A stretch of 64,000 nucleotides of DNA, taken from assembly GCF_048267785.1 (NCBI RefSeq), contig NZ_JBLWWU010000006.1, positions 11,942-75,941 of the forward strand, read 5' to 3'. Under the pieces are notes generated by a model, which had not been told where the DNA came from, searched no databases, and saw nothing but the letters and a program-made list of their open reading frames with translations. Positions 14,356-49,058 of this stretch are shown piece by piece; position 1 is the first letter of the stretch; each line of letters opens with the position of its first letter. The position numbers and the translations under genes were made by a program. This stretch comes from Parasphingorhabdus sp. (GTDB lineage Bacteria > Pseudomonadota > Alphaproteobacteria > Sphingomonadales > Sphingomonadaceae).

Positions 14356-16017
14356 CTAAAGATCTTTCAGCATATGGCGAGGCACCTTGTTCATGGCCGA
14401 TCGTGGTAGCGCATCGACAATCTTGAGATATTCCGGCCTTTTGAATTTTGCGATACCGTGTTCATTCATAAAATCTGTAAGGTCTTTGAGGGTAATTGTC
14501 TCGCCGGACATCGGTACGACCACGGCACAGACTTTCTCGCCCAATATACTGTCCGGTTTACCATATACCGCTGCTTCGAGTATCCGGGGATGCGATTGCA
14601 GAATCCCATCAAGCTCTTCAGGCGAAATGTTCATGCCTCCGCGGATGATCAGATCTTTGCAGCGCCCGACAAACCGGTAATATTGATTTTTATCGCCGGT
14701 AATTTCAAACAGGTCTCCGCTTCTGAAATAGCCATCGGGCGTAAAGGCTTCTGCATTGTCTTCCGGTGATTGATAATATCCGTCGAACACCGTCGATCCG
14801 GCGATTTCCAGTTCGCCGGGGACGCCCGGCTCGGTGATTTCTGCACCGCTGTCCTTGTCGATCAAGCGGGTATCGATGCGATCACCAATGCCCGTCGACC
14901 AGCTGAATTCGGGTCTTCCAAATCGGGGGAAGCAGGTCGCGCGGTCGCTCGTATCGGGGACGTCGACGGGTGTCCCAATCAGGGCCATGCCCTCATTCGA
15001 TCCGAACAGATTGAAAATGTCGATCCCGAAAGTCTCGGTAAACCCTTGCACCATCGCAGGGTCCAGCGGCGCGCTACCGGAAGCAATCGTCTTTACGCTT
15101 TCGAGAAACCCGGCCGCCTTGATCATGTCTTTTTGCAGAAGAAGTTTGCTCAATATCGCCGGTGGAGCGATCGTATAAGCGCACTGCTCGTCTTTCAGCT
15201 GTTGCAGATATGCCGCCGGCTCAAACGGATGGTGCAGGATCATTTTTGCCTTTGACTGGAGCCAGAGGAAAAGGAAACCACCTATCGCAGCCATATTGAT
15301 GAACGGGAAAGGACAAAGCATTGCCGCGCCGGTCGGGAGCTCTACCGGCTTTCCGCACATGACGCTGGATGACAACCAGTGATTGTGGCTGCGCGGTACG
15401 CCCTTTGGTCGTCCGGTGGTGCCGGATGTCCAACAGATTGTCAGTATATCATCAGCCGAATGGGCGAGCCCGTTCCGGTAATCCTGATAGGCTTGCGTCA
15501 CGTCAGCCTTTGACCCTGTCGCATCGCTATCGGAAGTGAATAGCAGCGGTGTACAACTGTCTGGCAAAATATCCAGAATCGGTTCTGCGAATGGAGCGCC
15601 GCGAAAATCCGTGAACGCGATATAGGCGCTGGGATCAATGGTCTGGGTAATATGACTGACTTCAAATGTTCCGTATTGAACCGCCATTGGGCTGACAATC
15701 AGTCCAAGCCTAGCGGCGGCCAGATAGACAAGGATAATCTCGACCGTATTGGGCAAATGGACAGCGATGCGGTCCCCCTGGCGCAATCCGGCCTCGAAAT
15801 ATCGCGATGCCAGCCGGTCGGCCAACAAATCGATTTCGCGAAAGGTCAGGCGTCTCGGGTCGCCGTGAACCAGATCGCCACGGTTGCTCGGATCTATCAA
15901 TGCAAGATCGTCTGGATGGGAAGCCAGCGCGGCGGAAAATATCTGGTCGAGAGTCGTGTTGCCCCACCATCCGGCCTGCTTCATGGCAGTGATTTTCTCA
16001 CATGATGACGTCTGCAT
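14356..16017 (-). CDS. Acyl-CoA synthetase (class I adenylate-forming enzyme)
   Basis: WTSGTTGRPKG, FGSNEG, RSGDL, RCKDLIIRGG and final KVPR motifs. Start at 16017 follows a GAGGGG SD. Confidence 0.93.
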   Translation of the reverse strand: MQTSSCEKITAMKQAGWWGNTTLDQIFSAALASHPDDLALIDPSNRGDLVHGDPRRLTFREIDLLADRLASRYFEAGLRQGDRIAVHLPNTVEIILVYLAAARLGLIVSPMAVQYGTFEVSHITQTIDPSAYIAFTDFRGAPFAEPILDILPDSCTPLLFTSDSDATGSKADVTQAYQDYRNGLAHSADDILTICWTSGTTGRPKGVPRSHNHWLSSSVMCGKPVELPTGAAMLCPFPFINMAAIGGFLFLWLQSKAKMILHHPFEPAAYLQQLKDEQCAYTIAPPAILSKLLLQKDMIKAAGFLESVKTIASGSAPLDPAMVQGFTETFGIDIFNLFGSNEGMALIGTPVDVPDTSDRATCFPRFGRPEFSWSTGIGDRIDTRLIDKDSGAEITEPGVPGELEIAGSTVFDGYYQSPEDNAEAFTPDGYFRSGDLFEITGDKNQYYRFVGRCKDLIIRGGMNISPEELDGILQSHPRILEAAVYGKPDSILGEKVCAVVVPMSGETITLKDLTDFMNEHGIAKFKRPEYLKIVDALPRSAMNKVPRHMLKDL

Positions 16018-16025
16018 ATATCCCC

Positions 16026-16043
16026 TCACTTGTTTAATCATAC
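16026..16043. promoter_or_regulatory. Cluster operator motif copy (15/18)
   Basis: TCACTTGTTTAATCATAC directly upstream of the CoA ligase start. Confidence 0.7.
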
Positions 16044-16095
16044 TTGGTAGAATTGCTATGCGGGAGTGTCAAGTTATGGCGCGGCAGCCCAATTA

Positions 16096-16113
16096 TAACT
16101 TGTATAAACATAC
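16096..16113. promoter_or_regulatory. Cluster operator motif copy (reference)
   Basis: TAACTTGTATAAACATAC; overlaps a putative -35 TTGTAT with TATGAT 18 nt downstream, ahead of the oxygenase. Confidence 0.75.
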
Positions 16114-16180
16114 TATATGGGATTATGATCTAATCAGTCGGTTAAACGACTCTCAAACAGATTATGCTCAGGAGGCTAAA

Positions 16181-17632
16181 ATGAATGCACCCTTCAAGGA
16201 ACCCAAAGCACCGTTCGGCCATGCTTATGGTGAAATGATAACTGGTCCATTTGCCCCGGTTCCGGATGAATCCGTGCTCACCGATTTGCCGGTTGAAGGA
16301 GAAATCCCTGCTGACTTGAACGGTGTCTATCTCCGCAATGGGCCAAATCCGCGCTTTGAACCACAAGGGGCCTACCATCCGTTTGATGGTGACGGAATGC
16401 TCCATGCCGCGGAATTTAGAAATGGCAAGGTGGTCTATCGGAACAAATGGGTGCGGTCCGAAGGCTGGCTTGAAGATGATGCAGCCGGGGAAGAAACCCA
16501 CTGGGGCATTCGGCAGACGTTAAAAGGCCGGACCGATATGGTGCTGGCCGATGCTGCCAATACCGATGTTCTGGGGCATGCCGGCTATGCCGTGGCGACT
16601 TGGTATCTTTCGGGAAAGCCGCATATCATTGATCCGATTACGCTCGAAACAATCGAGGCTGCGGAATATACCAGCGCACCGGGCAACGGGATTTCGGCTC
16701 ATGGCAAGGTCGATGAATATACCGGTGAACTGATGTTTTTCGACTATTTTGATTATGCACCATTCATGACCTACAGCGTTGTAAACCGGGAAGGAAAGCT
16801 GGTTCATAATGTTCCGATAGAATTGCCTGGGGACCGTCTGCCGCACGATATGGGAATCACGGAACACTATTCTATTTTGCATGATCTGCCCGTCTATCAT
16901 GATGAAGAAGCATTGAAGGCCGGACGGCACAAGATTCGGTTCAACTCCAAAATACCAACGCGCTTCGGCGTTATTCCCCGGCACGGGGCATCCGATAGCA
17001 TCAAATGGTTCGAATTCACGCCATGCTTTCTCTATCATGTGGTCAATTGCTGGGAAGAGGGCGATGAAGTGGTCATGGTAGCCTGCCGCTTCATGCCGAC
17101 GATGAAGGAAAATGGCGAATATGACGAGGCGCGCACTGCGAGGATGATCGCCGAGCTTGGCATGTATAGCCGCTTGTGGCGGTATCGGATGAATATGAAA
17201 ACCGGCGAGACGCACGAAGAATGTCTGAATGCCGATCATAATGTAGAATTTCCCAGCTATCACACCGCTGAAACAGGGCGACATACAAGCTGGACCTATG
17301 TGGTTGATCATAATCCTAACACTCTGCACTGGACCGGTATTCGCAAGCTCAACACCGATACGGGGGAGAGCGCCGGAGAGTGGTCGGACGGACATGACGA
17401 TTGCTGGTATAGCGAGCCCTGGTTTGCGCCGGCCGATGATCCGCAAAGTGAAGATCATGGTTATGTAATTACCTTTGTGTGGAATGAGAAAACCAGTGTG
17501 CAGCAGCTACAGGTGTTCGATGCGCTGGATCTCAACAAGGGGCCGATTGCCCGCGTGACGCTTCCCCGGCATGTCCCGGTCGGTTTTCACGCGTGCTGGA
17601 TGAAGCCGAGTCAGATTGCCAACTGGAACTAA
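16181..17632 (+). CDS. Carotenoid oxygenase family dioxygenase (CCO / lignostilbene dioxygenase, RPE65 superfamily)
   Basis: YLRNGPNP and HPFDGDGM motifs; four candidate iron-ligand His in SAHGK, LPHDM, LYHVVN and GFHAC. GGAGG SD before ATG 16181. Confidence 0.93.
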   Translation: MNAPFKEPKAPFGHAYGEMITGPFAPVPDESVLTDLPVEGEIPADLNGVYLRNGPNPRFEPQGAYHPFDGDGMLHAAEFRNGKVVYRNKWVRSEGWLEDDAAGEETHWGIRQTLKGRTDMVLADAANTDVLGHAGYAVATWYLSGKPHIIDPITLETIEAAEYTSAPGNGISAHGKVDEYTGELMFFDYFDYAPFMTYSVVNREGKLVHNVPIELPGDRLPHDMGITEHYSILHDLPVYHDEEALKAGRHKIRFNSKIPTRFGVIPRHGASDSIKWFEFTPCFLYHVVNCWEEGDEVVMVACRFMPTMKENGEYDEARTARMIAELGMYSRLWRYRMNMKTGETHEECLNADHNVEFPSYHTAETGRHTSWTYVVDHNPNTLHWTGIRKLNTDTGESAGEWSDGHDDCWYSEPWFAPADDPQSEDHGYVITFVWNEKTSVQQLQVFDALDLNKGPIARVTLPRHVPVGFHACWMKPSQIANWN

Positions 17633-17724
17633 ATGCCGGTCCCGGTAGAGAGGTCGCGACATAGCGGCAAGATCGCTGGATAATCCAGGCTGTTCGAGAT
17701 TATTCTTGGCAGTCTCGAGCGCGC

Positions 17725-18960
17725 CTATCTGGAAAGAACGGTAACGACGGTCACGCCTTCTTCGACATGGAGAAAGCCTCCGCCGTTTTCTGCGACACCA
17801 AGTCTGGCCCCTTCAACTTGCCGTGCACCGGCCTCGCCGCGCAGTTGCAATACCAGTTCCTCGAGCTGCGCGATTCCGGTTGCGCCGACAGGGTGACCTT
17901 TTGACATCAAACCGCCGCACGGGTTCACCACCACGGATCCGCCCAGCTTTGTCGCGCCGCTGGCGGTGAAGGCACCGCCTTCGCCCATCGGGCAAAGCTG
18001 GAGGTTTTCAATCTGTTGTATCTCGGCAAAGGCGCTCGCGTCGTGCAGTTCCACGACGTCAATATCCGCCGGGTCCACACCGGCTTGCGCATAGGCTATC
18101 GTGGCAGCACGCCGGCCTGCATGCTGGGCATAATCGGTCATCTCGCGCTTTTGTGCGGACGCTATGCCGACCCCCTTGATCTCGACAGCCCGTTTTTTCT
18201 GGTCGTCGGTGAGGGCGCTGCCCCGCGCCAAAATGACAGCAGCGCCACCGTCGCTTATCGGTGCACACATCGCCCGCGTGAATGGCCAGACGATCTGTTT
18301 GTCCGCCAGCACCTCTTCAACCGACATGTCTTGTCGATATTGCGATTTGGGATTGAGCGTAGAATGAAAATGGGCCTTGGCTGCCGCTGCTGCCAAATGT
18401 TCCTGCGTGGTGCCGAAAGTTTTCATATGCTGACGGGCCATGGCTGCATAGACGTCCATGAAGAAGCTGCGTTCCGCTGAATTGTCAGCGCTCTCGGGAA
18501 TGATGTCCCTGCCGATGGCGGACATACGCTCCGCGGTCTCGTCTACGATTTCAATATCGGTGCCGCCCATGAAAGCGGCGAACATTTTTTCGCGCCGGTC
18601 GGTAAAATACATTTTCTCTACGCCAACCGCCATCGTAATATCCGCCTGACCCGCGCGAATATGGTTGGCAGCGTTAAACACCGCACTTGATCCACTGGCG
18701 CAGGCATTCTCGATATTGAATATCGGCACACTGGGGAGTCCAGCCGCGCCAAGCGCAATCTGGCCGCGGATGGTGTTTTGTCCCTCCAGCATAGGCTGGC
18801 GCGTGTTCGAAAACCAGGCGGCCTCGATCCGGTCGGCTTCCAGTCCGGCATCGCGCAGGGCATCTGATACGACTTCGGTGGCGAGCATTTTCACGGATTT
18901 TTCTGGCCATTTCCGGAATGGCGTTGTTGCAGCCCCGATTATGTAAATATTGTCTTTCAT
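17725..18960 (-). CDS. Thiolase-family protein (SCP2-type)
   Basis: ENACASGS, ELHDAS, GHPVGATG and ENGGG motifs. Confidence 0.9.
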   Translation of the reverse strand: MKDNIYIIGAATTPFRKWPEKSVKMLATEVVSDALRDAGLEADRIEAAWFSNTRQPMLEGQNTIRGQIALGAAGLPSVPIFNIENACASGSSAVFNAANHIRAGQADITMAVGVEKMYFTDRREKMFAAFMGGTDIEIVDETAERMSAIGRDIIPESADNSAERSFFMDVYAAMARQHMKTFGTTQEHLAAAAAKAHFHSTLNPKSQYRQDMSVEEVLADKQIVWPFTRAMCAPISDGGAAVILARGSALTDDQKKRAVEIKGVGIASAQKREMTDYAQHAGRRAATIAYAQAGVDPADIDVVELHDASAFAEIQQIENLQLCPMGEGGAFTASGATKLGGSVVVNPCGGLMSKGHPVGATGIAQLEELVLQLRGEAGARQVEGARLGVAENGGGFLHVEEGVTVVTVLSR

Positions 18961-18964
18961 GATC

Positions 18965-18982
18965 TAACTTGTATAAACATAC
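18965..18982. promoter_or_regulatory. Cluster operator motif copy (18/18 identical to 16096-16113)
   Basis: TAACTTGTATAAACATAC, 5 nt upstream of the thiolase ATG. Confidence 0.75.
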
Positions 18983-19134
18983 CATTGTATATGCAAATCC
19001 TATTTGGCTCTTTTTCTCTGGCAATTTCCGTATGCGGTAGATCCAGAGGCAGGGAATTGACTATTGGCAATTCGGAGCCTCGTCCCATATGGTATGGCTA
19101 CGAGAGCCAGTCGCTAAACTTTGAAATTGCCTCC

Positions 19135-19149
19135 CAATAACGGTTATTG
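19135..19149. promoter_or_regulatory. Perfect palindrome upstream of the regulator gene
   Basis: CAATAAC-G-GTTATTG, extendable to 19131-19153 with one mismatch. Confidence 0.4.
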
Positions 19150-19199
19150 AGAGACACTTAGGCAAGATCTGGATGTTTCGGCTCCGCCGACCGACAAGA

Positions 19200-20189
19200 A
19201 TGAAGGACAATGTAGCTTTGACACAAAAATTGGTTCCAGCTTGTTCCATTTGGCGCGCTCTGGAAGTGGTCGGGGATACACCGACACTTTTGATCATCCA
19301 GAGCTATTGGCTTGGTGCGCGTCGGTTCGAAGAGTTTAGAAAGCAAACGGGGTTGCTCAAGGCGCTGGTCAGCAACCGGCTGAAGAAACTTGTCGAGGAG
19401 GGCTGTTTCAAGAAAGTCGTCTATTCGGAGCGACCGCTGAGATACGAATATGTTGGAACCGAGAAATTACGTGACCAGTATAAGCTTTCTCTTGCGATGC
19501 TACACTGGGAACGGAAATGGTTTGACGGGACCAATGAGCACAAGGTCCACATCGAACTGCGGCACAAGAATTGTGGAAAGGTTACTGATCCAGCACCCGT
19601 ATGCAGTTGTTGCAGATCAAACGTCAAGGCGCGGGAAACCGACTGGCGCCTGGGGCCTGGTGGCGGCGAGATGGTCGCGGAATATGGTCGCCGGCGGCAG
19701 GACGCGTTCAATAAGGGGCGGCCACATACCGCTCTTTTCGACAATTTCAGCTATGTCATCGGAGACCGCTGGCGGTCGTTGATCATTCGCTCGATCTTTC
19801 GAAATCTGAACAAATATGACGAGATATTGGGCGACACCCAAATGGCGACGAATATTCTGACGGATCGCCTAAAAAGCCTTTGTGAAGAAGGGTTTCTGAA
19901 GAAGGAACAATATCAGTCGAATCCCAAGAGATTCTCCTACAAGCTGACCGACAAGGGGCTTGATGTCTATCCGGTGATGATGTTGATAATGGAGTGGGGT
20001 GATAAATGGTATCCCGATCCAAAAGGGCCGCCGCTGCTGTTGACCCATCGTCCGTGCAACCATCCGTTGCAGATCGATATGGCATGTTCTGCCTGCGGTG
20101 AATCGGTCGATCTGGGTGATCTGGACTATCAAATTCTCGAAGAAAAAGAGGGGACATCTGACAATATGTTAACCTCGGCAGCAGTTTGA
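19200..20189 (+). CDS. Tandem (fused double) HxlR/DUF24 winged-helix regulator
   Basis: Two HxlR repeats (CSIWRALEVVGDT...LVSNRLKKLVEEG and YVIGDRWRSLI...ILTDRLKSLCEEG), each followed by an HxxC...CxxC tail. Confidence 0.9.
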   Translation: MKDNVALTQKLVPACSIWRALEVVGDTPTLLIIQSYWLGARRFEEFRKQTGLLKALVSNRLKKLVEEGCFKKVVYSERPLRYEYVGTEKLRDQYKLSLAMLHWERKWFDGTNEHKVHIELRHKNCGKVTDPAPVCSCCRSNVKARETDWRLGPGGGEMVAEYGRRRQDAFNKGRPHTALFDNFSYVIGDRWRSLIIRSIFRNLNKYDEILGDTQMATNILTDRLKSLCEEGFLKKEQYQSNPKRFSYKLTDKGLDVYPVMMLIMEWGDKWYPDPKGPPLLLTHRPCNHPLQIDMACSACGESVDLGDLDYQILEEKEGTSDNMLTSAAV

Positions 20190-20287
20190 TGTTTGGGAAT
20201 AGCGGGAAAGAGATGTTTGTAATCTGTCACCGGCGAGCCCGGTAAACGGGCAGCGTCAGCTTTCAGCATCCTGACGACCTGCCGCCG

Positions 20288-21604
20288 CTATTCAGCCATC
20301 AGATGCTCGGCAATAGCCTGGTAGGCTGGCAGCGACGTTGCATCAAAACTTCCATTCGTGGCGACCGGGTGGGAGGCGAATCTGACAATCACCATTTCCG
20401 CTGCGGGATCGATATAGATGGTCTGGCCATGGATTCCCCGTGCCGTATAAGCGCCATGGGCATTTTGGGAAACCCACCATTGATTGCGGTAGCTCCAGCC
20501 AGGCAATGTGGCATATCCCGCCTTGGCAAAATCCGATTTGCTCGCCCCGGCCCGCATATCTTCAACAACCGACTTGGGCAGAATCTGTTGGCCATTGAAG
20601 AATCCGCCCCGTCGCATCATCTCGCCAAAGCGGGCCTGATCACGCAACACCGCGTTAAACCCGCCCGCTGCAAAACCAGTGCCGGCGGAATCAATCAGCA
20701 TATAGGCATCCATTTCTGTGCCCAGTTTGCGCCAGATATGCGTTTCCAGCGCCGCGACCGCCGTTTGTCCGGTTACACGCTGGATCAGCCAGCCCAGAAC
20801 TTCGCTATTGACCGATTTGTAAATAAATTGCCCGCCATGCTCGCCTTCCTTTTTCAGCGTCGGAAGATAATCGTAAAATGTCTTCTTTCCGTCATATCCA
20901 GGCGGTGGTGGCAGGATACCGCCTGCATAGGAAAATTCCCAGACATCGGAATTCGGGTCGGCATATTTTTCGGAATAGCTGATCCCGGTCGTCATATCGA
21001 GCACTTGTCTGACCGTTGCATCGGCAAAAGCAGAACCCCGCATTTCGGGGATATATTTTGTGACCAGTGCGTCTGGGTCAAGCTTCCCTTCGCTGATCAA
21101 CATCGCCGCAAGCGTTCCAAAATAGGATTTTGTTACGGAGAAGGACATGTGCGGCAAGTCGGGTTTCGCGGCACCGAAATAACGTTCGTAGACGATCCGT
21201 CCCTTGTGCAGCACGATGATCGAGTCGGTATAATTTACCTTGAGCGATTGTGCCCAGGTCATGCTCTGGTCACTGCCAAGCGGCAAAAACTGCACGTCAT
21301 CAAGATCAGATCGCTCTGCTCTCGGCAATAGCGATACCGCGCCATTGCCTCTCGCTACATTTTTGGTCGGCACCAGTTCGCGCATATGGGAAAATGACCA
21401 GCGCGACTTCGGGAATTGGTAAAACCCCATATCGCCATGACGGACGATCTTGTCGGGTGGAACCGGATCGCCTTGCATCCATCCCATGGTTACCGGATCG
21501 GAATCCTCCGGTCGCTGATCGGTAGATTGTGCAAAGCTGATTGTCGAGGCACATAATGCAAAAATGGCCATGCCCGAACTGATAATCCGTTTGGTCATGG
21601 CCAT
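20288..21604 (-). CDS. Periplasmic serine hydrolase (class C beta-lactamase / NylB-like esterase-amidase)
   Basis: SxxK (SVTK), YKS and RGIHGQ motifs; signal peptide; 23 bp downstream of the TBDR. Confidence 0.88.
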   Translation of the reverse strand: MAMTKRIISSGMAIFALCASTISFAQSTDQRPEDSDPVTMGWMQGDPVPPDKIVRHGDMGFYQFPKSRWSFSHMRELVPTKNVARGNGAVSLLPRAERSDLDDVQFLPLGSDQSMTWAQSLKVNYTDSIIVLHKGRIVYERYFGAAKPDLPHMSFSVTKSYFGTLAAMLISEGKLDPDALVTKYIPEMRGSAFADATVRQVLDMTTGISYSEKYADPNSDVWEFSYAGGILPPPPGYDGKKTFYDYLPTLKKEGEHGGQFIYKSVNSEVLGWLIQRVTGQTAVAALETHIWRKLGTEMDAYMLIDSAGTGFAAGGFNAVLRDQARFGEMMRRGGFFNGQQILPKSVVEDMRAGASKSDFAKAGYATLPGWSYRNQWWVSQNAHGAYTARGIHGQTIYIDPAAEMVIVRFASHPVATNGSFDATSLPAYQAIAEHLMAE

Positions 21605-21627
21605 TTCTCCTTACTGTTTTCGTGTCG

Positions 21628-23907
21628 TCAGAATTTGATATTGGCTTGCAAGGCGATACTGCGCGGGCGTTCGAATATACCATTATAGGCGACGCCGGTA
21701 CCCCCGGTAATCGTTGTCGAAAGTGGCAGGTTGCCAGCGGTGGTCAAGATTCGCTCGTTGGTCAGATTCTTGCCGATCAGGGCAAGGCTCCAATGATCAT
21801 CCACTTCACTGAGCGAAATTCGAGCACCCATTTTTACATAGCTTGCTTGGCGGGTCCGCGGATCCAGATTGGCCGCTGCTATAAAGCTGCTGGAAAAGTC
21901 AGCGTTTAAATTGATCCCCAGTTTGAGAGAGTCCGTCAATTCATGCCTGAAATCTCCGTTCAGATTGCCCGACCATTTGGGGGTCAACGCATTGCGCTGT
22001 CCAGAATAGTCGCAAAAGCCACCCGGTCCCGGGGTCTGTTGGAAATAACATTGGCCTTGGGGAAAGTTGGTGAATTCGAAATCGAGATAGGCGATTGCGC
22101 CGCTCAGCGTGAAATGTTTGTCGACGGCCCAGCGCATGTCCGCCTCAATGCCTTGCGTCGTCGCACCGGCGGCATTGCGAACGTTGAAACCCAATACACC
22201 ATCAAAGATATTTACCTGCAAATCTTTGTATTTGGTTCGATAAAGGGACAGATTTAGAGCAAAATTCCGCGTGTCATATTTGAGTCCCGCTTCGATATTG
22301 TCTGCCCGTTCATCTCCAAACTGAAATGCGCCCGGTGTCGCAACCGTTGTCGAGCCGGGAAGTGCGTTCGACCGGATATCGAATCCACCTGCCTTTGTCC
22401 CGCGTGCAAAGGATGCGTAGAACATCAGTTCGTTGGTGATATCATATTGGACATTCGCCATCGGGTTGAAGGAGTTTTCACTCAATGAACCGCTGATACT
22501 ATGCGCTTCGATATTCAAGGCCCGGAATGTGGCGGTCACGGCAGCAAGTGGTGAGGCGTTCAAAGGGCCGACGCTAATGGCAAGTTCCCGGTCGCCGCTT
22601 TTTTTCTCATGATTGAAGCGGGCGCCTGCGGTTAGCCGTAGCGAATCGGTTAGCGATATTTCACCCTGCGCAAAGGCGGAAATCAAATCCGACTTCTGCG
22701 AGTAAACCCGGTCATTGGACGTATCGCCGATCGCCGCAAAAGCCGTTGCCAGGAAAAAGGGAGAGAATTTGACCTGATCCGTCGCGTCGAGTTTGCTGTG
22801 CTGATAATAAACGCCTGCGATATAATTGAATGGATTGTCGCCCGGGGACGCGATCCGCAGTTCCTGGGAAAACTGGCTGTAATCTTCCGTCTGGTTGGTG
22901 CCATCGAGAAAGTTCAATTCAATAAAATCAACATCCAATAGCTCCCGGACGCTATAATCGAGATATCCGGTTGTCGAGGTCAACGTGTGATCGCCGATCT
23001 CGTAATCGACATTCAGCACCGCATTGAAAATCTTGTTGCGACTTTCATAGCCTCCGTCTGCCCGGACATTGTCAAGATCGGTTTCAACCGCAAGAGGTCC
23101 TGAAAAAATCGCAGAATAAGTTCCAACTGGACCAAATGCTTCCCGCGGCTGGCCTTTGGTCTTGAAGTCGGCATATTCCAATTTGACGTTGGCAGATAAC
23201 GGGCTGTCGCCTTCAAAGCTCAAGATTCCGCGAACAAATGCTTCACGCACATTCGGCTCGTTTCGATCTTGCAAGGTGTTAAAGACATAACCGTCCATAT
23301 CGCGATAATAGCCGACTACTCGCGCGCCGATGTTTTCCGATACCGGGCCGGATAATACGCCTGTTATCTGGGCTTCATTATGATTGAATTCGTATAACGC
23401 CTTGAGCGACCCTTCAAATTCATCGGAGGGTTTGCGGGTGGTTACGTTGACAGCGCCGGCGATGGCGTTTTTGCCGAATAAGGTCGGCTGAGGACCGCGC
23501 AGCACCTCGACCCGTTCCAGATCGACAAGTGGCAGACGACTGAGTTGGTCTCGTCCATAGTAGATATTGTCAACGAACATTGCGACTGATTGTTCGAAAC
23601 CCTTATTGTCACCCGATGCGATGCCGCGGATCGCGATGCGATTGGCAATTGCGGTCTGGGTTATCTTGAGATTGGGGATTGAAGAAGAGACTTCCTCGAG
23701 GCTGGTTTGCCCGTAGGAGTCAATCTTCTCGCCTGAGACTGCGCTGATCGAAATCGGGACGTCAGACAGGCCTTCGGCGCGTTTCTGTGCGGTAACGACA
23801 ATGACATCCAATCCCCCTTCCTCTTGCGTATCCTGTGCGAAAACCGGCGTGCTGCATAAAGCAAAGGACAAGGCTATGGCGGTGCTGTTTAATATATGTG
23901 ATTTCAT
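21628..23907 (-). CDS. TonB-dependent receptor
   Basis: Signal peptide, IVVTAQKR, ERVEVLRGPQPTLFG, C-terminal Phe (ANIKF). Confidence 0.95.
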   Translation of the reverse strand: MKSHILNSTAIALSFALCSTPVFAQDTQEEGGLDVIVVTAQKRAEGLSDVPISISAVSGEKIDSYGQTSLEEVSSSIPNLKITQTAIANRIAIRGIASGDNKGFEQSVAMFVDNIYYGRDQLSRLPLVDLERVEVLRGPQPTLFGKNAIAGAVNVTTRKPSDEFEGSLKALYEFNHNEAQITGVLSGPVSENIGARVVGYYRDMDGYVFNTLQDRNEPNVREAFVRGILSFEGDSPLSANVKLEYADFKTKGQPREAFGPVGTYSAIFSGPLAVETDLDNVRADGGYESRNKIFNAVLNVDYEIGDHTLTSTTGYLDYSVRELLDVDFIELNFLDGTNQTEDYSQFSQELRIASPGDNPFNYIAGVYYQHSKLDATDQVKFSPFFLATAFAAIGDTSNDRVYSQKSDLISAFAQGEISLTDSLRLTAGARFNHEKKSGDRELAISVGPLNASPLAAVTATFRALNIEAHSISGSLSENSFNPMANVQYDITNELMFYASFARGTKAGGFDIRSNALPGSTTVATPGAFQFGDERADNIEAGLKYDTRNFALNLSLYRTKYKDLQVNIFDGVLGFNVRNAAGATTQGIEADMRWAVDKHFTLSGAIAYLDFEFTNFPQGQCYFQQTPGPGGFCDYSGQRNALTPKWSGNLNGDFRHELTDSLKLGINLNADFSSSFIAAANLDPRTRQASYVKMGARISLSEVDDHWSLALIGKNLTNERILTTAGNLPLSTTITGGTGVAYNGIFERPRSIALQANIKF

Positions 23908-23942
23908 CAGAATCCCCTCCCAGGACATTTTCATTTAACGTT

Positions 23943-23960
23943 GTCTTTATATGCAAGTTA
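23943..23960. promoter_or_regulatory. Cluster operator motif copy (14/18, reverse strand)
   Basis: Reverse complement reads TAACTTGCATATAAAGAC; upstream of the TBDR. Confidence 0.55.
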
Positions 23961-24120
23961 CTTGTATCTGTATCGGTATTCCGAACATCCAGTTCATTAC
24001 ATCCACCCGATGCCATAAACTGTATTTCAACCAAAAACCCCGCAGACAAACTAACCTAATTCCCTTTGTTATCGCAATTTTCTCAAAAGGAGCTTGCCAT
24101 AACATATCACCGATTATAAG

Positions 24121-24138
24121 GTATGTTTAAACAAGTCA
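24121..24138. promoter_or_regulatory. Cluster operator motif copy (16/18, reverse strand)
   Basis: Reverse complement reads TGACTTGTTTAAACATAC; a weaker CTTG-N6-CATA copy lies at 24093-24106. Confidence 0.7.
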
Positions 24139-24183
24139 ATACTGCAAATTCAATGCGCATTGGCGATCACAAAAGGGGGGCAA

Positions 24184-25146
24184 ATGCACTTCGCATCCGA
24201 TCAAAATCTGACGCTGCCTGCAATCGCAGCGCCAATGTTTCTAATATCCGGACCGGAAATGGTGATTGCCGCATCCAAAGCCGGGATTATCGGGGCCTTT
24301 CCGACCCCCAATGCCCGCACATCTGAAATATTGGATGACTGGATGGCGCAGATCACAACAACTCTTGCGGCCGAGCCGAATGCTGCGCCTTGGGCCGCCA
24401 ATCTGGTTGTTCACCGATCCAATCCGCGTCTGGCGGAAGATGTTGCCTGCGTCGTCAAATATAAGCCGCCACTGGTCATCACGGCGTTGGGGAGCCCGGC
24501 CGAAATTATCGAACAGGTGCACAGCTATGGTGGTCTGGTTTATGCGGACGTCAATTCCGTTGCGTTTGCGCGCAAGGCCGCCGCAGCCGGTGTCGATGGA
24601 CTTGTTCTGGTAGGCGCTGGTGCGGGTGGCCATACCGGCCAGATTGCCGGTTTCGCCTTTGTCGAAGAGGTCAGAAAATTCTGGGATGGCGCAATTGTTC
24701 TGGGCGGCGCCATTTCCAGTGGTCACGCGATCCGAGCAGCCGAAGTGCTCGGCGCAGACCTTGCCTATCTGGGAACATCGCTAATTCCCTGCGAAGAAAG
24801 CCTGGCTGTGCAGGAATATAAGCAGATGGTGCTCGATGCCGGTGCCGAGGATATCATACCGTCCAACGCCATTACCGGCGTGACGGCCAACTGGCTGAAA
24901 CAAAGTCTGATCAATGCCGGACATGATCCCGACAATATGGGTGGTCCGGGCAAAATCAATTTTGCCGATCCCCAAAATGACAGAAAGGCCTGGAAGCACG
25001 TTTGGGCTGCGGGGCAGGGCGTCGGCGCGGTGACGCAAAACGCGCCGATCGCTGATATCATCAGCCGGATGGGGGCGGAATATGACGATGCGATAAAGCT
25101 TCCCGCTTTCGGTCGCAATGCAGGAGACGACAATGACCAAAGGTGA
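24184..25146 (+). CDS. Nitronate monooxygenase / FabK-like FMN oxidoreductase
   Basis: AAPMFLIS, GAGGHTG, GGAISSG and YLGT motifs. Confidence 0.88.
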   Translation: MHFASDQNLTLPAIAAPMFLISGPEMVIAASKAGIIGAFPTPNARTSEILDDWMAQITTTLAAEPNAAPWAANLVVHRSNPRLAEDVACVVKYKPPLVITALGSPAEIIEQVHSYGGLVYADVNSVAFARKAAAAGVDGLVLVGAGAGGHTGQIAGFAFVEEVRKFWDGAIVLGGAISSGHAIRAAEVLGADLAYLGTSLIPCEESLAVQEYKQMVLDAGAEDIIPSNAITGVTANWLKQSLINAGHDPDNMGGPGKINFADPQNDRKAWKHVWAAGQGVGAVTQNAPIADIISRMGAEYDDAIKLPAFGRNAGDDNDQR

Positions 25147-26365
25147 AGTTTTTATCCTCGGCGGTGCGCAGACTGATTTTGCGGCCAATTATGCGCGCGA
25201 AGGCAAAGGCATTTTTGACCTGTTCCGCGACGTCACCGAAGATGCATTTGAAGCATCCGGCATCGAACCCAAAGACGTCGAAGCGGCCCATGTCGGTAAT
25301 TTTGTTGCCGAACTGTTTGCCGGACAGGGGCAACTCGGTGGTTTTCTGGGTCATGTTCATCCCGATCTTTCCGGTGTCCCGGCATCGCGCCATGAGGCCG
25401 CTTGCGCATCGGGCAGCATCGCGATGCTGGCGGCGAGCGCGGAAATAGAGGCGGGGCGTTATGGGCTGGCCCTCGTTATCGGGCTGGAACTCATGCGCAA
25501 TGTACCGGGCCAACGGGCGGCAGAACATCTCGGCGCAGCCGCTTGGACGGGTCGTGAAGCGAATGAAGCGCGCTATTTGTGGCCCTATATGTTTTCCGAG
25601 CTGGCGGATGAATATGGCGAACGCTACGGTCTCGATGCGGCCCATTTGCGGGCGATTTCGGAAAATAATTTTTCCAATGCCAAGCGAAATTCCAGAGCAC
25701 AGACCCGCGATTGGAAAATCACTCCCGAGCATTTTGCGGATAATGATGAGTTTAATCCGCCGATCGAAGGATGCCTTCGCAAATCAGATTGCGGGCAGGT
25801 AACAGACGGAGCGGCGGCGATTTTCCTGGCCTCGCGCGAATATGCGGAAGCCTATGCCCGACGGCGCGGGATATCGCTCGACAGCATTCCCCGTATCAAG
25901 GGCTGGGGGCATAGTACTGCACCAATGCTATATCGGACAAAAATCGAGGAAAGCCGCGACAGCGCCTATGTCTTTCCGCATGTCCGCAGCGCGATGATGG
26001 ATTCCCTGAAACGCGCAGGAATGTCCGATATCTATCAAGTCGACGGGGTCGAAGTGCATGACTGCTTTTCGATCACCGAATATATGATCATCGACCATTT
26101 CGGTATTACTCCGCCGGGCGAAAGCTGGCGTGCGATCGAGGATGGTACGATCAAGCTTGGCGGCAAGCTGCCGGTCAATCCGTCCGGTGGGCTTATCGGT
26201 CTGGGGCATCCGGTTGGCGCTACTGGCATCCGTATGGCGCTGGACAGCGCCCGACAGGTCACCGGCGATGCGGGCGATTATCAGGTGGAAGGTGCACAGA
26301 ATTTTGCGACATTCAACGTCGGTGGCAGCGCGACGACTTCGGTCAGCTTTGTCATCGGGACATAG
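25133..26365 (+). CDS. Acetyl-CoA acetyltransferase (SCP2-type thiolase)
   Basis: EAACASG, VHDCF, GHPVGATG and FNVGG motifs. Confidence 0.9.
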   Translation: MTKGEVFILGGAQTDFAANYAREGKGIFDLFRDVTEDAFEASGIEPKDVEAAHVGNFVAELFAGQGQLGGFLGHVHPDLSGVPASRHEAACASGSIAMLAASAEIEAGRYGLALVIGLELMRNVPGQRAAEHLGAAAWTGREANEARYLWPYMFSELADEYGERYGLDAAHLRAISENNFSNAKRNSRAQTRDWKITPEHFADNDEFNPPIEGCLRKSDCGQVTDGAAAIFLASREYAEAYARRRGISLDSIPRIKGWGHSTAPMLYRTKIEESRDSAYVFPHVRSAMMDSLKRAGMSDIYQVDGVEVHDCFSITEYMIIDHFGITPPGESWRAIEDGTIKLGGKLPVNPSGGLIGLGHPVGATGIRMALDSARQVTGDAGDYQVEGAQNFATFNVGGSATTSVSFVIGT

Positions 26366-26391
26366 CGTCACAAGATCAGGATTTCAGGAGA

Positions 26392-27588
26392 TTGAGCAAT
26401 AGCATGAGCAATTCTACATATATTTATGATGCGGTGCGCACGCCACGCGGCAAAGCAAAGGCCGATGCGCCACTGGCACAGCTCTCTCCGCAGGAATTGA
26501 TCAGTCAACTGCACACGGCGTTGAAAGACCGTAATCAAGGCGCACTGGAAAACCCTGATTCCCTTCTTCTCGGTTGTGTTGGTCAATTTGGTAGCCAGGG
26601 CGGGAATATTGCGCTCGTGTCAAAATTGCATGCCGGCATTCCCGATAGTGCGTCGGCCAGCACCCTGAATAATTATTGCGCATCGGGACTGACGGCAATC
26701 GGCCAGGCGTTTGAATCCGTAGCCTCCGGCAATGCCAAAGCGGTTCTGGCTGGCGGTGTTGAAATGATGTCTCAGGTTCCCTTCATGGGCGACAAGGCCA
26801 GCTATTATGATGATGATCGTTTCCCCGCCAGAACCCGATATATCCCCGTTGTCCTGGCAGCTGATCGATTGGCGCAGAGGGAGGGGATCACAAGACAGCA
26901 GCTCGATGAAGCCGCGCTGACTTCACAGCAGAAAGCCGCCGTTGCCCAGGATTCCGGGGCGCTTCAGAAATCCAGAATAGCGATTAAAAATGCCAATGGG
27001 TCGGTTGTGCTGGATCGGGATGAATGCGTTCGCGGTAAAACCACTGCGGCATCGCTTGCATCCATGGCGCCTGGTTTCGGTGAACTGGCGACACATTATG
27101 CCGAGGCACTGGGTGACGAAACCTTTGATCCTATCCACACCATATCGCACGCACCACCCATATGTGACGGTGCGGGTCTCGCTTTGGTCGGTGGTGCCGG
27201 ACTGGGCGAGGGTGAGCCGCGCGCCCGGATTCTGGCCTATGCGGATTGCGGTGCCGATCCGGCGGCGGCACTCACAGCCGGCTTTGCATCCATGGAACGG
27301 GCGCTGGAACGCGCGGGGCTATCGCTGGAACAGATAGACCGGATCGAATTCATGGAAGCGTTCGGGGTCACTATCGCAAAATTTCTGCGGGATTATCCGG
27401 TCAATCCAGAAAAGGTCAACGTCAGCGGCGGTCATATCGCAAAAGGCCATCCTCTCGGAGCGAGCGGAGCGATATTGATTTCGTCACTGCTGGATTGCCT
27501 TGATGAGGCGGATCAGAAAATCGGAATGGTTGTGGTCAGCGGGGCGTCCGGATCCGGCGGCGCAATGATTGTAGAGCGTCTGAACTGA
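26392..27588 (+). CDS. Classical-fold thiolase-like protein with divergent active site
   Basis: YDAVRTPRGK, NNYCASG and GHPLGASG present; MEAF replaces NEAF and S-G-A replaces the C-terminal CxG. Confidence 0.85.
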   Translation: MSNSMSNSTYIYDAVRTPRGKAKADAPLAQLSPQELISQLHTALKDRNQGALENPDSLLLGCVGQFGSQGGNIALVSKLHAGIPDSASASTLNNYCASGLTAIGQAFESVASGNAKAVLAGGVEMMSQVPFMGDKASYYDDDRFPARTRYIPVVLAADRLAQREGITRQQLDEAALTSQQKAAVAQDSGALQKSRIAIKNANGSVVLDRDECVRGKTTAASLASMAPGFGELATHYAEALGDETFDPIHTISHAPPICDGAGLALVGGAGLGEGEPRARILAYADCGADPAAALTAGFASMERALERAGLSLEQIDRIEFMEAFGVTIAKFLRDYPVNPEKVNVSGGHIAKGHPLGASGAILISSLLDCLDEADQKIGMVVVSGASGSGGAMIVERLN

Positions 27589-27631
27589 CCGTCGGCCCCA
27601 CGTGATATTGAAACAGGAATAGGAATACGAA

Positions 27632-29347
27632 ATGACCAAATCGCTGTCAGAACTGGTGTCACAGCATCAAGAGCTGATTGAAAAGGCAGTGGATGCCGTC
27701 AACACGCGCCGCAACTGGAGTCCGTTCAAGGATTCTCCCAGCCGCAAATTTTATCCCGAAGGCAGGCCTGAAGAGGGCAAGGCTGCCTTTGAAGCAAGGA
27801 TCGGACAGAAATACGAAATTGATCAGCCTGGCATCACGGGTTGGACCGGGGCAGAAGTGTCACCCTATACCGGCAAACAACTCGGCATCACCTATCCCCT
27901 GAGTGATCCCGATATACTGGTGGACAGCGCGAAGACTGCGATGGCCAGCTGGGGCAGGACCACTGCTGAAGAGCGTATTGCCCTGTGTCTGGAGATGGCG
28001 CTGCGGATCTACGATCGCGGTTTTGAAATGGCGCACAGTATCATGCACGTGGCTGGGCAAAGCTTTACGCAAGCCTATAGCGGCAGCGGACCCAATGCGC
28101 TGGATCGCGGTATAGAAGCACTGGCCTATGCGGCAAAGGCGATGAAGGACGTAGCGCCGTCGGGGACCTGGGAACGGCGCTTCGGCGCAGATGACATTGT
28201 GCTGGAAAAAAAATACCGGATGGTGCCGCGCGGCATAGGCCTGGTCATTTGCTGCGCTTCATTTCCGACATGGAATGCCTATCCCGCGATGTTTGCCAGT
28301 CTTGCCACCGGAAATCCGGTGATCGTAAAACCGCATCCGATCGCAATTTTGCCGATTGCGATCGCCGTGGAAGAATGCCGTGCAGTTCTCGCTGATTTTG
28401 GTTTTGATCCCAATCTGGTAACGATGGCCGCGGATACGCCTGAAGAGCCTGTGGCCCAGAAATATATCGACAATCCGCATGTCCAGATCATCGATTTCAC
28501 CGGCAGCCCGCGCTATGGCGGCTATCTGGAAAAGACCGTCACCGAAAAACTGCTTTATACTGAAACGGCGGGGCTGAATTCGGTAGTGATCGACTCCACC
28601 GAAAACCTCGCTGAAACCGCGAAAGCCATAGCGCGTGGAACCTGCCTGTTCTCGGCGCAAATGTGTACCAGCCCGCAAAACATCCATATCCCGAAATCCG
28701 GTATCATGACGGCCGACGGGCATGCCAGCTTTGACGATGTTGCTGCGGCACTGGTTTCGGCGGTCGACGATATCGCTAACGCGCCTGCGGCTGCGGCCGG
28801 TGTGATGGGGACAGTGCAGGCTCAGAACAGCGTCGATCTCGTCTTGGATCTGATGGAGCGCCTGGACGGGCACGAGGGCGCGCAAGTCATTCGCAGAGCG
28901 TCGCCCTATGTACATCCTGATTTCCCGGATGCGCGCACCTTGACGCCGCTGATAGTGACACTTGAAGCAGGCAATGAGGAAATATACAGTGAAGAGCATT
29001 TCGGCCCTGTGCTGTTCATCATTGCCGCTGAAGATGCCGAGGGTGCCGTGAATGACGCGACCCGTCTGGCCCGCCAACATGGGGCTATTTCATCCTTTCT
29101 GTATTCAACCGATGCAGATTTTGTTGACTGGGCGGTTGAAGAATATGTCCGCAGCGGGATGAATCTCACCATCAACATGCACGGCGCGATGTGGATTAAC
29201 TTTGCCGCTGCTTATAGCGATTATCATGTCACCGGGCTGAACCCTGCCGGCAATGCCTGTCTTGCGGATCTCGCGTTTGTCGCCAGCCGGTTCCGCATTG
29301 TGCAATATCGCCAGCCTGCATCATCTGTCGCTTCAATCGCGGCTTGA
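27632..29347 (+). CDS. paaN: PaaN-like aldehyde dehydrogenase
   Basis: CASFPTWNAYPAMFASLATGNPVIVKPHP, DFTGS, QMCTSPQN and EEHFGP motifs. Confidence 0.85.
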   Translation: MTKSLSELVSQHQELIEKAVDAVNTRRNWSPFKDSPSRKFYPEGRPEEGKAAFEARIGQKYEIDQPGITGWTGAEVSPYTGKQLGITYPLSDPDILVDSAKTAMASWGRTTAEERIALCLEMALRIYDRGFEMAHSIMHVAGQSFTQAYSGSGPNALDRGIEALAYAAKAMKDVAPSGTWERRFGADDIVLEKKYRMVPRGIGLVICCASFPTWNAYPAMFASLATGNPVIVKPHPIAILPIAIAVEECRAVLADFGFDPNLVTMAADTPEEPVAQKYIDNPHVQIIDFTGSPRYGGYLEKTVTEKLLYTETAGLNSVVIDSTENLAETAKAIARGTCLFSAQMCTSPQNIHIPKSGIMTADGHASFDDVAAALVSAVDDIANAPAAAAGVMGTVQAQNSVDLVLDLMERLDGHEGAQVIRRASPYVHPDFPDARTLTPLIVTLEAGNEEIYSEEHFGPVLFIIAAEDAEGAVNDATRLARQHGAISSFLYSTDADFVDWAVEEYVRSGMNLTINMHGAMWINFAAAYSDYHVTGLNPAGNACLADLAFVASRFRIVQYRQPASSVASIAA

Positions 29348-29390
29348 TGGGTATGACAGGATCGGGATTTATTCTTAAGGAGCAGTTCTG

Positions 29391-48916: not shown

Positions 48917-49058
48917 AATCATACTTCCTTTTGTTAAACCGTCCCCCATTAAGCGGAATACGGTCTCAAGTTCGCATCGGTTGGGTCATGAACCAGAGGA
49001 GCATCGATGCCTGCTCTCCCGGCGTAAATCCGTCCGCGGCCCACGCCGCAAACGAAGC

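What the first reader, a model, noticed from the sequence alone, without database searches (positions are those of the whole stretch)
16026..24138. Asymmetric 18-bp operator at every promoter of the catabolic cluster
Seen: TAACTTGTATAAACATAC occurs identically at 16096-16113 and 18965-18982. Variants lie at 16026-16043 (15/18), 24121-24138 (reverse, 16/18) and 23943-23960 (reverse, 14/18), with a weak CTTG-N6-CATA at 24093-24106. All are intergenic and within about 100 bp of the ligase, oxygenase, thiolase, TBDR or NMO starts. Orientation relative to the gene is mixed, which argues for an operator rather than a sigma element. The core TGT-W4-ACA is palindromic but the flanks differ (ACT versus TAC). 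Inference: this defines a regulon, and an asymmetric site fits a fused pseudo-heterodimeric regulator.
Basis: partly seen in the sequence, partly recalled or inferred. Interest (0 to 1): 0.75.

Follow-up and report, generated by a model that had tools for sequence, protein, structure and literature searches.

The report
Operator of a double-headed HxlR regulator
A non-palindromic 18-21 base DNA signal marks every promoter region of a carotenoid-oxygenase breakdown gene cluster and travels, in many marine bacteria, with an unusual regulator made of two fused, unlike HxlR DNA-binding modules, so it is very probably that regulator's docking site.

Summary
TAACTTGTATAAACATAC occurs exactly at 16096 and 18965. 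Close variants lie at 16026 and 24121(-), and a weak one at 23943(-). In the 3.48-Mb genome the four strong copies occur nowhere else.

The motif is conserved next to orthologues of the tandem HxlR gene (19200-20189) in all 28 alpha- and gammaproteobacterial loci examined. Those loci hold the same genes: acyl-CoA ligase, RPE65-type oxygenase, NMO, thiolases, PaaN-like ALDH and a TonB-dependent receptor. The family consensus is TnACTTKCATAAWnATACYWA, which is asymmetric.

Orientation is not mixed. It is fixed gene by gene: ligase and NMO always lie on the TnACTT side, 5-34 bp from the start codon, and TBDR, thiolB, oxygenase and ALDH lie on the ATAC side.

Best reading: this is the operator of a single-chain pseudo-heterodimeric HxlR regulator that acts as a local repressor. 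The site would cover the -10/start of one promoter and the -35 region of the divergent one. No binding was tested and no transcript data exist.

This is a new variant of a known kind (HxlR/MarR regulator and operator). I found no published description. Earlier agents of this scan noted the same system in other genomes.

The parts
16026..16046 (+). Operator copy at the ligase promoter (TCACTTGTTTAATCATAC+ttg). Its TnACTT edge is 8 bp from the ligase ATG (16017) and overlaps the GAGGGG Shine-Dalgarno sequence.
   Evidence: 26.2 bits with the 18-bp PWM, 23.1 with the 21-bp PWM
16096..16116 (+). Operator copy pointing at the oxygenase gene (exact 18-mer), 67 bp before the ATG at 16181. TTGTAT inside it, an 18-nt spacer and TATGAT (16124-16129) form a plausible promoter.
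   Evidence: 30.1/32.1 bits; the promoter reading is my inspection
18965..18985 (+). Operator copy (exact 18-mer) 4 bp from the ATG of the SCPx-type thiolase (18960, minus strand) and 217 bp before the regulator start at 19200.
24118..24138 (-). Operator copy at the promoter of the NMO-thiolase-thiolase-ALDH-CoA-transferase operon (TGACTTGTTTAAACATAC+ctt). NMO lies on its TnACTT side, as in all orthologues.
   Evidence: 27.7/26.1 bits
23940..23960 (-). Weak operator-like copy (TAACTTGCATATAAAGAC) pointing at the TBDR gene. It overlaps a head-to-head pair of left half-sites, ATGCAAGT-T-ACTTGTAT (23950-23967).
   Evidence: 16.7/12.9 bits; at genome background by score, but placed and oriented as in orthologous TBDR promoters
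24093..24098 (+). -35-like CTTGCC box of the NMO operon promoter.
19200..20189 (+). Tandem HxlR regulator. It has two HxlR winged-helix modules (about residues 15-110 and 180-270 counted from 19200), each followed by an H-x2-C...C-x2-C knuckle. An alternative start is at 19173.
14356..16017 (-). Acyl-CoA ligase (AMP-binding), a regulated gene.
16181..17632 (+). RPE65/carotenoid-cleavage-type oxygenase, a regulated gene.
17725..18960 (-). SCPx-type thiolase/lipid-transfer protein, a regulated gene.
20288..23907 (-). TBDR (21628-23907) and a beta-lactamase-family hydrolase (20288-21604). They probably form one transcription unit.
   Evidence: start codon
24184..30575 (+). Operon of NMO-like oxidoreductase, two thiolases, PaaN_2-type ALDH and family III CoA-transferase.

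Best explanation
The motif is the cognate operator of the tandem HxlR protein encoded at 19200-20189.

One polypeptide carries two diverged HxlR winged-helix modules that pack into a covalent pseudo-dimer. Each module reads a different half of a 16-21 bp site: ACTT(K)CAT on one side and ATAC(YWA) on the other. The site is therefore polar.

The operator sits in the core promoters of all five catabolic transcription units: ligase, oxygenase, thiolase, TBDR-hydrolase and the NMO...CoA-transferase operon. For genes on the TnACTT side (ligase, NMO, and here thiolA) it covers the likely -10/start region. For genes on the ATAC side (oxygenase, TBDR, thiolB, ALDH) it covers the -35 region, because TTGCAT/TTGTAT is embedded in the site. 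The free protein would thus repress the cluster and an inducer would release it.

What is shown: the sites, their uniqueness, their conservation, their linkage to the regulator gene, their fixed polarity, and the two-module protein.

What is inferred: binding, repression rather than activation, which module reads which half, and the inducer. For the inducer I suggest an electrophilic pathway intermediate, such as an unsaturated aldehyde made by the oxygenase, acting on the invariant Cys15 that aligns with the sensor Cys14 of HypR.
For: Uniqueness: the four sites of 26-30 bits all lie in the cluster and the rest of the genome is at background.

Conservation: 61 distinct sites >=17 bits were found in 26 sources (the window plus 25 orthologous loci), always beside orthologues of the same genes and of the regulator (43-58% identity). 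Three further loci, at least one of them gammaproteobacterial, also carry the motif. In one genus the whole system is two divergent operons sharing a single site, with the regulator gene inside one of them (L048-L052).

Seed-free check: strand-specific 7-mer enrichment recovers TTATGCAAGT upstream of ligase/NMO and ACTTGCATAA upstream of TBDR/thiolB/oxygenase. These occur in 8-11 sequences against a maximum of 4-5 in shuffles.

Linkage: the regulator is in 55/401 genomes of the order. The exact pattern is in 14/55 of those against 17/346 of the rest (p=7.5e-6), and in 12 genomes it lies within 10 kb of the regulator. Two same-genus genomes lack both. No other regulator gene lies within 14-31 kb of the window.

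Polarity: ligase is 'away' in 17/17 loci, NMO 'away' in 15/15, TBDR 'toward' in 8/9, thiolB 5/6, oxygenase 4/5, and ALDH 2/2.

Repressor geometry: the site edge is 5-34 bp from the ligase/NMO start codons. A TTGnnn -35-like box lies 16-21 nt beyond the ATAC end in 16/28 such sites, including perfect TTGACA.

Protein: Pfam finds two HxlR stretches. The halves are 29% identical. The AF2 model has pLDDT 89.6 and pTM 0.86. Each half resembles PA1607, YodB and HypR. The recognition helices differ (N module LLKtvVSdRL, C module IATNILSERL) and each is conserved across 61 homologues.

Operator size: the A3-C18 span is 16 bp, the same as the footprinted HypR box GTATCAAAATTGATAC, and it shares that box's ATAC end (PMC3351151).
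Against: There is no binding, footprint, transcript or mutant evidence, and no RNA runs exist for this organism.

The model coordinates could not be inspected, so the pseudo-two-fold packing rests on pTM and on analogy.

Part of the conservation and polarity could come from promoter elements embedded in the site, namely the -35-like TTGCAT and the -10-like TAGTAT.

HxlR and HypR, two characterised family members, are activators (PDB names; PMC3351151).

In this window the regulator's own candidate promoter (19064-19093) lies about 80 bp beyond the site, so autoregulation here is doubtful.

The TBDR site is weak.

ACTT (positions 3-6) and ACYW (positions 17-20) could also be read as a 14-bp direct repeat, which would imply head-to-tail rather than pseudo-symmetric binding.
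Confidence: 0.68

Rival explanations
1. The protein and site are as above, but the tandem HxlR acts as an activator, or as a dual regulator. The fixed polarity would serve to place one module next to RNA polymerase at the 'toward' promoters.
For: HxlR and HypR of the same family activate transcription (PDB names; PMC3351151). Polarity is strictly conserved. At 'toward' genes the site lies 40-90 bp before the ATG, so it would overlap -35 as at class II activator sites.
Against: At ligase, NMO and thiolA the site is 4-34 bp from the start codon and would cover -10/+1. Several of these promoters carry a perfect TTGACA and so would not need an activator. HypR itself is thought to repress from a downstream box.
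Confidence: 0.14
2. The regulator binds a smaller, roughly symmetric core. The conserved asymmetric flanks and the polarity come from promoter elements that overlap it: a -35 TTGCAT for one direction and a -10 TAGTAT for the other.
For: TTGCAT/TTGTAT (positions 5-10) and TWRGTAT (positions 21-15, read on the opposite strand) resemble sigma-70 hexamers. A -35-like box lies at the right distance from the latter. In this genome the core TGTWTAAACA is nearly palindromic.
Against: A3, C4, A12, A17 and C18 are nearly invariant (1.5-1.9 bits), far above what promoter hexamers show. The full motif is kept at sites with a gene on one side only, such as L002 TBDR, L003/L004 oxygenase and window 16096. 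The palindromic core is not conserved across the family.
Confidence: 0.1
3. The motif is bound by some other factor, either a regulator encoded elsewhere or an alternative sigma factor, and the tandem HxlR is only a neighbour.
For: No direct binding data exist. Operator assignment by neighbourhood can be wrong.
Against: The motif is confined to this cluster. It tracks the regulator gene across two proteobacterial classes and through gene-order rearrangements. It is one contiguous 18-21 bp block used in both orientations, not a split -35/-10 pair. No sigma factor or second regulator is conserved in the loci.
Confidence: 0.06

Closest known systems
HypR (YybR) of Bacillus subtilis and its box GTATCAAAATTGATAC (HxlR/DUF24 family; PDB 4a5n/4a5m; PMC3351151)
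   Same: It has the same Pfam domain. The operator spans 16 bp and ends in ATAC. The sensor Cys14 aligns with the invariant Cys15 of the N-terminal module. Boxes occur at target promoters and at the regulator's own promoter.
   Different: HypR is a homodimer of 131-residue chains and reads a 7-2-7 palindrome. Here one 329-residue chain carries two modules that are only 29% identical, and the left half-site is ACTT instead of GTAT.
PA1607 (2f2e) and PA1374 (4gcv) of Pseudomonas aeruginosa, 'long' HxlR proteins of unknown function
   Same: They are the best sequence and fold matches for each module, including the extension after the last helix.
   Different: They are single-module chains without the H-x2-C...C-x2-C motif. 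No operator or regulon is known for them.
SarS (1p4x), SarU and SarY of Staphylococcus aureus: two-domain SarA/MarR-type proteins (that each half mimics a SarA monomer is from my own knowledge)
   Same: It is a natural single chain with two homologous, non-identical winged-helix modules that stands in for a dimer.
   Different: It belongs to a different family (SarA, not HxlR). The fold match over both modules is poor (TM 0.21-0.26). It has no Zn-type knuckles and no comparably defined asymmetric operator.
YodB/QsrR/CatR quinone- and electrophile-sensing HxlR repressors
   Same: They are local repressors released by modification of the N-terminal Cys. The fold is similar.
   Different: They are homodimers with two sensor cysteines per dimer. 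Here only one module keeps the Cys, and the regulon is a catabolic pathway, not a detoxification set.

Membership tests
HxlR/DUF24 family (PF01638) transcription regulators | HxlR-type winged helix-turn-helix domain | tested here: met
   Pfam PF01638, E=4e-30, two stretches. PDB profile hits to PA1607, YodB, HxlR, HypR and QsrR. Foldseek matches with TM 0.7-0.8 per module.
HxlR/DUF24 family (PF01638) transcription regulators | Homodimer of roughly 105-170-residue single-domain chains | tested here: not met
   One 329-338-residue chain holds two modules that are 29% identical. The architecture is conserved among the 120 closest of 871 homologues (300-395 residues) and in the 61 aligned. The oligomeric state of the chain itself could not be tested.
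HxlR/DUF24 family (PF01638) transcription regulators | Palindromic operator of about 15-16 bp | tested here: not met
   The span is 16 bp, but the halves are ACTT and GTAT (the complement of ATAC). No site scores >=11 bits on both strands.
HxlR/DUF24 family (PF01638) transcription regulators | Conserved sensor Cys at the start of helix alpha1 | tested here: met
   C15 is invariant in 61 sequences and aligns with HypR Cys14. It is present only in the N-terminal module.
Local MarR-type repressor with operator in the core promoter | Operator overlaps -35, -10 or the transcription start | tested here: inconclusive
   The position relative to start codons and to -35-like boxes fits. No transcription starts are known and there are no RNA runs.
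Local MarR-type repressor with operator in the core promoter | Protein binds the operator and a ligand releases it | not testable with these tools
   This needs EMSA or footprinting and a candidate inducer.
Local MarR-type repressor with operator in the core promoter | Autoregulation: a site at the regulator's own promoter | tested here: inconclusive
   In orthologues a site lies 22-183 bp before the regulator start and is shared with ligase, or the regulator is co-transcribed with the TBDR. In this window the site is 217 bp upstream, and a candidate promoter lies beyond it.
Single-chain two-domain winged-helix regulators (SarS type) | Two homologous winged-helix modules in one chain, packed as a pseudo-dimer | tested here: inconclusive
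   Two modules are present and pTM is 0.86, but the coordinates could not be inspected. The match to SarS 1p4x is poor, so this is an analogue, not a member of the SarA family.

The most novel reading that the evidence does not exclude
Tandem HxlR proteins are a large undescribed class of natural covalent pseudo-heterodimers. Their two modules read unlike half-sites, so each operator has a direction. That direction would be used to shut two back-to-back promoters with one molecule, covering the -10/start of one and the -35 of the other. A single sensor cysteine, together with two His-Cys3 knuckles, would respond to electrophilic aldehydes produced by the pathway's own alkene-cleaving oxygenase.
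Probability: 0.3. Interest if true: 0.7.

Novelty: new variant of a known kind. Interest (0 to 1): 0.55.

Why it matters
It gives a sequence-defined operator and a compact, testable regulon to a large family of regulators that so far carries only generic names. The search found 871 homologues, and no NCBIfam model covers them.

It offers a natural example of asymmetric DNA recognition by a fused winged-helix pair. That is of interest for understanding how homodimeric regulators evolve new specificity, and for building single-chain, orientation-specific repressors or biosensors.

The motif is also a practical marker. It can delimit the genes of an uncharacterised, widespread marine pathway built around a carotenoid-cleavage-type oxygenase.

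Tried and rejected
- Sigma-54 promoter: CTTGCAT resembles a -12 element, but no TGGCAC lies upstream in the flanks. Rejected.
- Split sigma-70 or ECF promoter as the whole motif: the conserved block is only 18-21 bp, contiguous, and used in both directions. Rejected.
- RNA element in a leader: the motif occurs in both orientations relative to transcription. Rejected.
- Recent duplication or mobile repeat as the cause of the two identical copies: there is no similarity beyond the 18-mer and the motif is conserved in distant genomes. Rejected.
- Global regulon: the PWM finds nothing above background elsewhere in the genome. The 48907 hit (17.1 bits) is at background level.
- Transcript evidence: only DNA runs were found.
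- Literature: searches for tandem or two-domain HxlR, and for bacterial carotenoid-cleavage catabolic clusters, gave nothing relevant.
- A clear -10 box downstream of 'toward' sites: it is convincing for the window's oxygenase promoter but not general across orthologues.
- The exact IUPAC pattern was too strict for many orthologues and picks up AT-rich chance hits in low-GC families. The PWM on fetched loci was more informative.


Full report
**Observation.** The 18-mer TAACTTGTATAAACATAC occurs exactly at 16096-16113 and 18965-18982. It occurs with 3 mismatches at 16026-16043 and with 2 mismatches on the minus strand at 24121-24138. None of 100 dinucleotide-preserving shuffles gave a match at <=3 mismatches. 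The fifth copy, 23943-23960 (-), is TAACTTGCATATAAAGAC, 14/18. In the whole 3.48-Mb assembly every match with <=3 mismatches lies in this cluster. A position weight matrix gives 26-30 bits for the four strong sites. The next best hit in the genome scores 17.3 bits. The number of hits >=12 bits (35) equals that in shuffled genomes (34-56). So the motif is real, rare and local.

**Genes.** Pfam and NCBIfam annotate the following:
- an acyl-CoA ligase (14356-16017, -)
- an RPE65/carotenoid-cleavage-type oxygenase (16181-17632, +), whose closest solved relative is carotenoid 9,10-dioxygenase
- an SCPx-type thiolase (17725-18960, -)
- a protein with two HxlR domains (19200-20189, +)
- a beta-lactamase-family hydrolase and a TonB-dependent receptor (20288-23907, -)
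- an operon of NMO-like oxidoreductase, two thiolases, a PaaN_2-type aldehyde dehydrogenase and a family III CoA-transferase (24184-30575, +)

No other regulator gene lies in this stretch. Each of the five catabolic transcription units has a site in its upstream gap. The TBDR site is the weak one.

**Conservation.** Orthologues of the two-domain HxlR protein (43-58% identical) were fetched from five named genomes: Maricaulaceae, Litorimonas, Parvibaculaceae, Hellea and a Caulobacterales MAG.

In all 28 loci the regulator sits beside orthologues of the same ligase, oxygenase, NMO, thiolase, ALDH and TBDR genes. In all of them the motif is present in the intergenic gaps. The window and the 25 loci of the order gave 61 distinct sites. 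Their consensus is T-n-A-C-T-T-K-C-A-T-A-A-W-n-A-T-A-C-Y-W-A, with near-invariant A3 C4 T5 T6, A12, A17 and C18.

In one genus the system is reduced to two divergent operons that share a single site, and the regulator is the last gene of one of them (L048-L052).

A seed-free test used strand-specific 7-mer counts in the 120 bp upstream of each orthologous gene. It recovered the same words: TTATGCAAGT or TTATGAAAGT before ligase and NMO, and ACTTGCATAA or ACTTTCATAA before TBDR, thiolB and the oxygenase. These occur in 8-11 sequences, against at most 4-5 in shuffles.

**Linkage to the regulator.** In 401 genomes of the order, 55 carry the two-domain protein. A strict IUPAC form of the motif is present in 14 of these 55 and in 17 of the other 346 (Fisher p=7.5e-6). 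In 12 genomes the hit lies within 10 kb of the regulator gene, where about 0.7% of random hits would fall. Two genomes of the same genus lack both the regulator and the motif, so the cluster is an accessory block.

**Asymmetry.** Family-wide those positions are TKC and WnA. The conserved blocks are ACTT (positions 3-6), CATAA (8-12) and ATAC (15-18), plus YWA. The left block and the complement of the right block (GTAT) agree at one position in four. No site scores on both strands.

The A3-C18 span is 16 bp. That is the length of the footprinted 7-2-7 box of the family member HypR, GTATCAAAATTGATAC, with which it shares the ATAC end (PMC3351151). The site therefore looks like a canonical HxlR-family operator in which one half has been replaced.

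**Polarity.** Orientation is fixed gene by gene:
- Ligase lies on the TnACTT side in 17 of 17 loci, with the site edge 8-34 bp from the start codon.
- NMO lies on that side in 15 of 15 loci, at 5-22 bp.
- TBDR (8/9), thiolB (5/6), oxygenase (4/5), ALDH (2/2) and the regulator (5/5) lie on the ATAC side. Most are 20-90 bp away; the regulator can be up to 217 bp away.

The window follows this rule at every site.

Reading towards ligase or NMO, a TTGnnn box (often TTGACA or CTTGCC) lies 16-21 nt beyond the ATAC end in 16 of 28 sites. That would place a -10 hexamer (TAGTAT, TATCGT) on the ATAC end, and the transcription start inside the site.

Reading the other way, TTGCAT/TTGTAT inside the site can serve as a -35. 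For the window's oxygenase gene it is followed after 18 nt by TATGAT.

These promoter assignments are inferences. The generic promoter scan was not significant and no RNA data exist.

**The protein.**
- The two halves are 29% identical over the winged helix and the following H-x2-C...C-x2-C motif.
- In an alignment of 61 homologues the recognition helices differ between the halves (LLKtvVSdRLkkL against IATNILSERL), and each is conserved in its own right.
- H122, C125, C135 and C138, and H283, C286, C296 and C299, are invariant or nearly so.
- Cys15 is invariant and aligns with the sensor Cys14 of HypR. The second module has no such Cys.
- The C-terminal module is closer to canonical family members than the N-terminal one: HypR E=4e-7 against 1e-3, and YodB 4e-7 against 0.05. 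I therefore guess that the C-terminal module reads the canonical ATAC half.
- AlphaFold2 with this alignment gives pLDDT 89.6 and pTM 0.86, which implies a defined mutual arrangement. Each half matches PA1607, YodB and HypR.
- I could not inspect the coordinates, so the pseudo-two-fold packing is inferred. An alternative reading of the site, ACTT...ACYW as a 14-bp direct repeat, cannot be excluded.
- An engineered HxlR-cpYFP-HxlR fusion shows that joining two HxlR subunits in one chain is tolerated (PMC7835342).

**Mechanism proposed.** One chain binds one polar operator and represses the promoters on both sides. An inducer linked to the pathway releases it. My suggestion for the inducer is an electrophilic unsaturated aldehyde from the oxygenase reaction, acting at Cys15. 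Repression is favoured because the site lies next to start codons, the promoters look strong, and there are the YodB/QsrR precedents. Activation remains possible because HxlR and HypR activate.

**Comparison and novelty.** The domain family is HxlR/DUF24. Two of its usual features, the homodimer and the palindromic operator, were tested and are not met. The nearest analogue in architecture is the two-domain SarS type of the SarA family, which is not homologous at this level.

I found no paper on tandem HxlR proteins or on this cluster. No NCBIfam model covers the protein. The few source names shown for the 120 closest homologues are all generic.

Earlier agents of this scan reported the same regulator and motif pairing in other genomes. 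Those notes agree with my results, but they are not independent evidence.

I class the finding as a new variant of a known kind. It is solid as comparative genomics and untested biochemically.

Noticed in passing
window 18987-18998 and 23950-23967: There are extra inverted pairs of the left half-site only. TTGTATATGCAA (10/12 palindrome) lies 5 bp after site 18965-18982. ATGCAAGT-T-ACTTGTAT overlaps the weak TBDR site. They could be auxiliary binding places for one module, or chance.
   Followed up: no
L056:1546-2487 and L056:10001-10987 (Aliiglaciecola sp.): Two paralogous tandem-HxlR genes sit in one cluster with TBDR, ligase, oxygenase, thiolases, NMO, ALDH and CoA-transferase. Several motif copies lie before the TBDR, the second regulator and the thiolase operon.
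   Followed up: partly
window 14356-30575: The whole cluster, the regulator and the motif are absent from two genomes of the same genus (G309, G366), although similar clusters occur in other families and in Gammaproteobacteria. This suggests an accessory, horizontally moving block.
   Followed up: partly
window 27632-29347: The aldehyde dehydrogenase passes the NCBIfam equivalog cut-off for PaaN_2, 'phenylacetic acid degradation protein PaaN' (618 against 578.75 bits). It does so in a cluster that has no other paa genes.
   Followed up: no
window 16026-16113; L005:3998-4077; L039:14486-14589; L040:5625-5711: Pairs of sites 62-86 bp apart, centre to centre, recur in several loci. This could allow cooperative binding or looping by two regulator molecules.
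   Followed up: no
window 48907-48927: TATTTTTCATAATCATACTTC scores 16-17 bits with the operator matrix. It lies just inside the 5' end of the 48164-48949 (-) ORF of the pilus cluster. The score is at genome background, so it is probably chance.
   Followed up: partly
window 23907-23934 and 24160-24184: The first in-frame start codons given by the ORF list are probably not the real starts. The TBDR more likely starts at 23907 (GGAGGGG 7 nt upstream) and NMO at 24184 (AAAGGGGGG upstream).
   Followed up: partly
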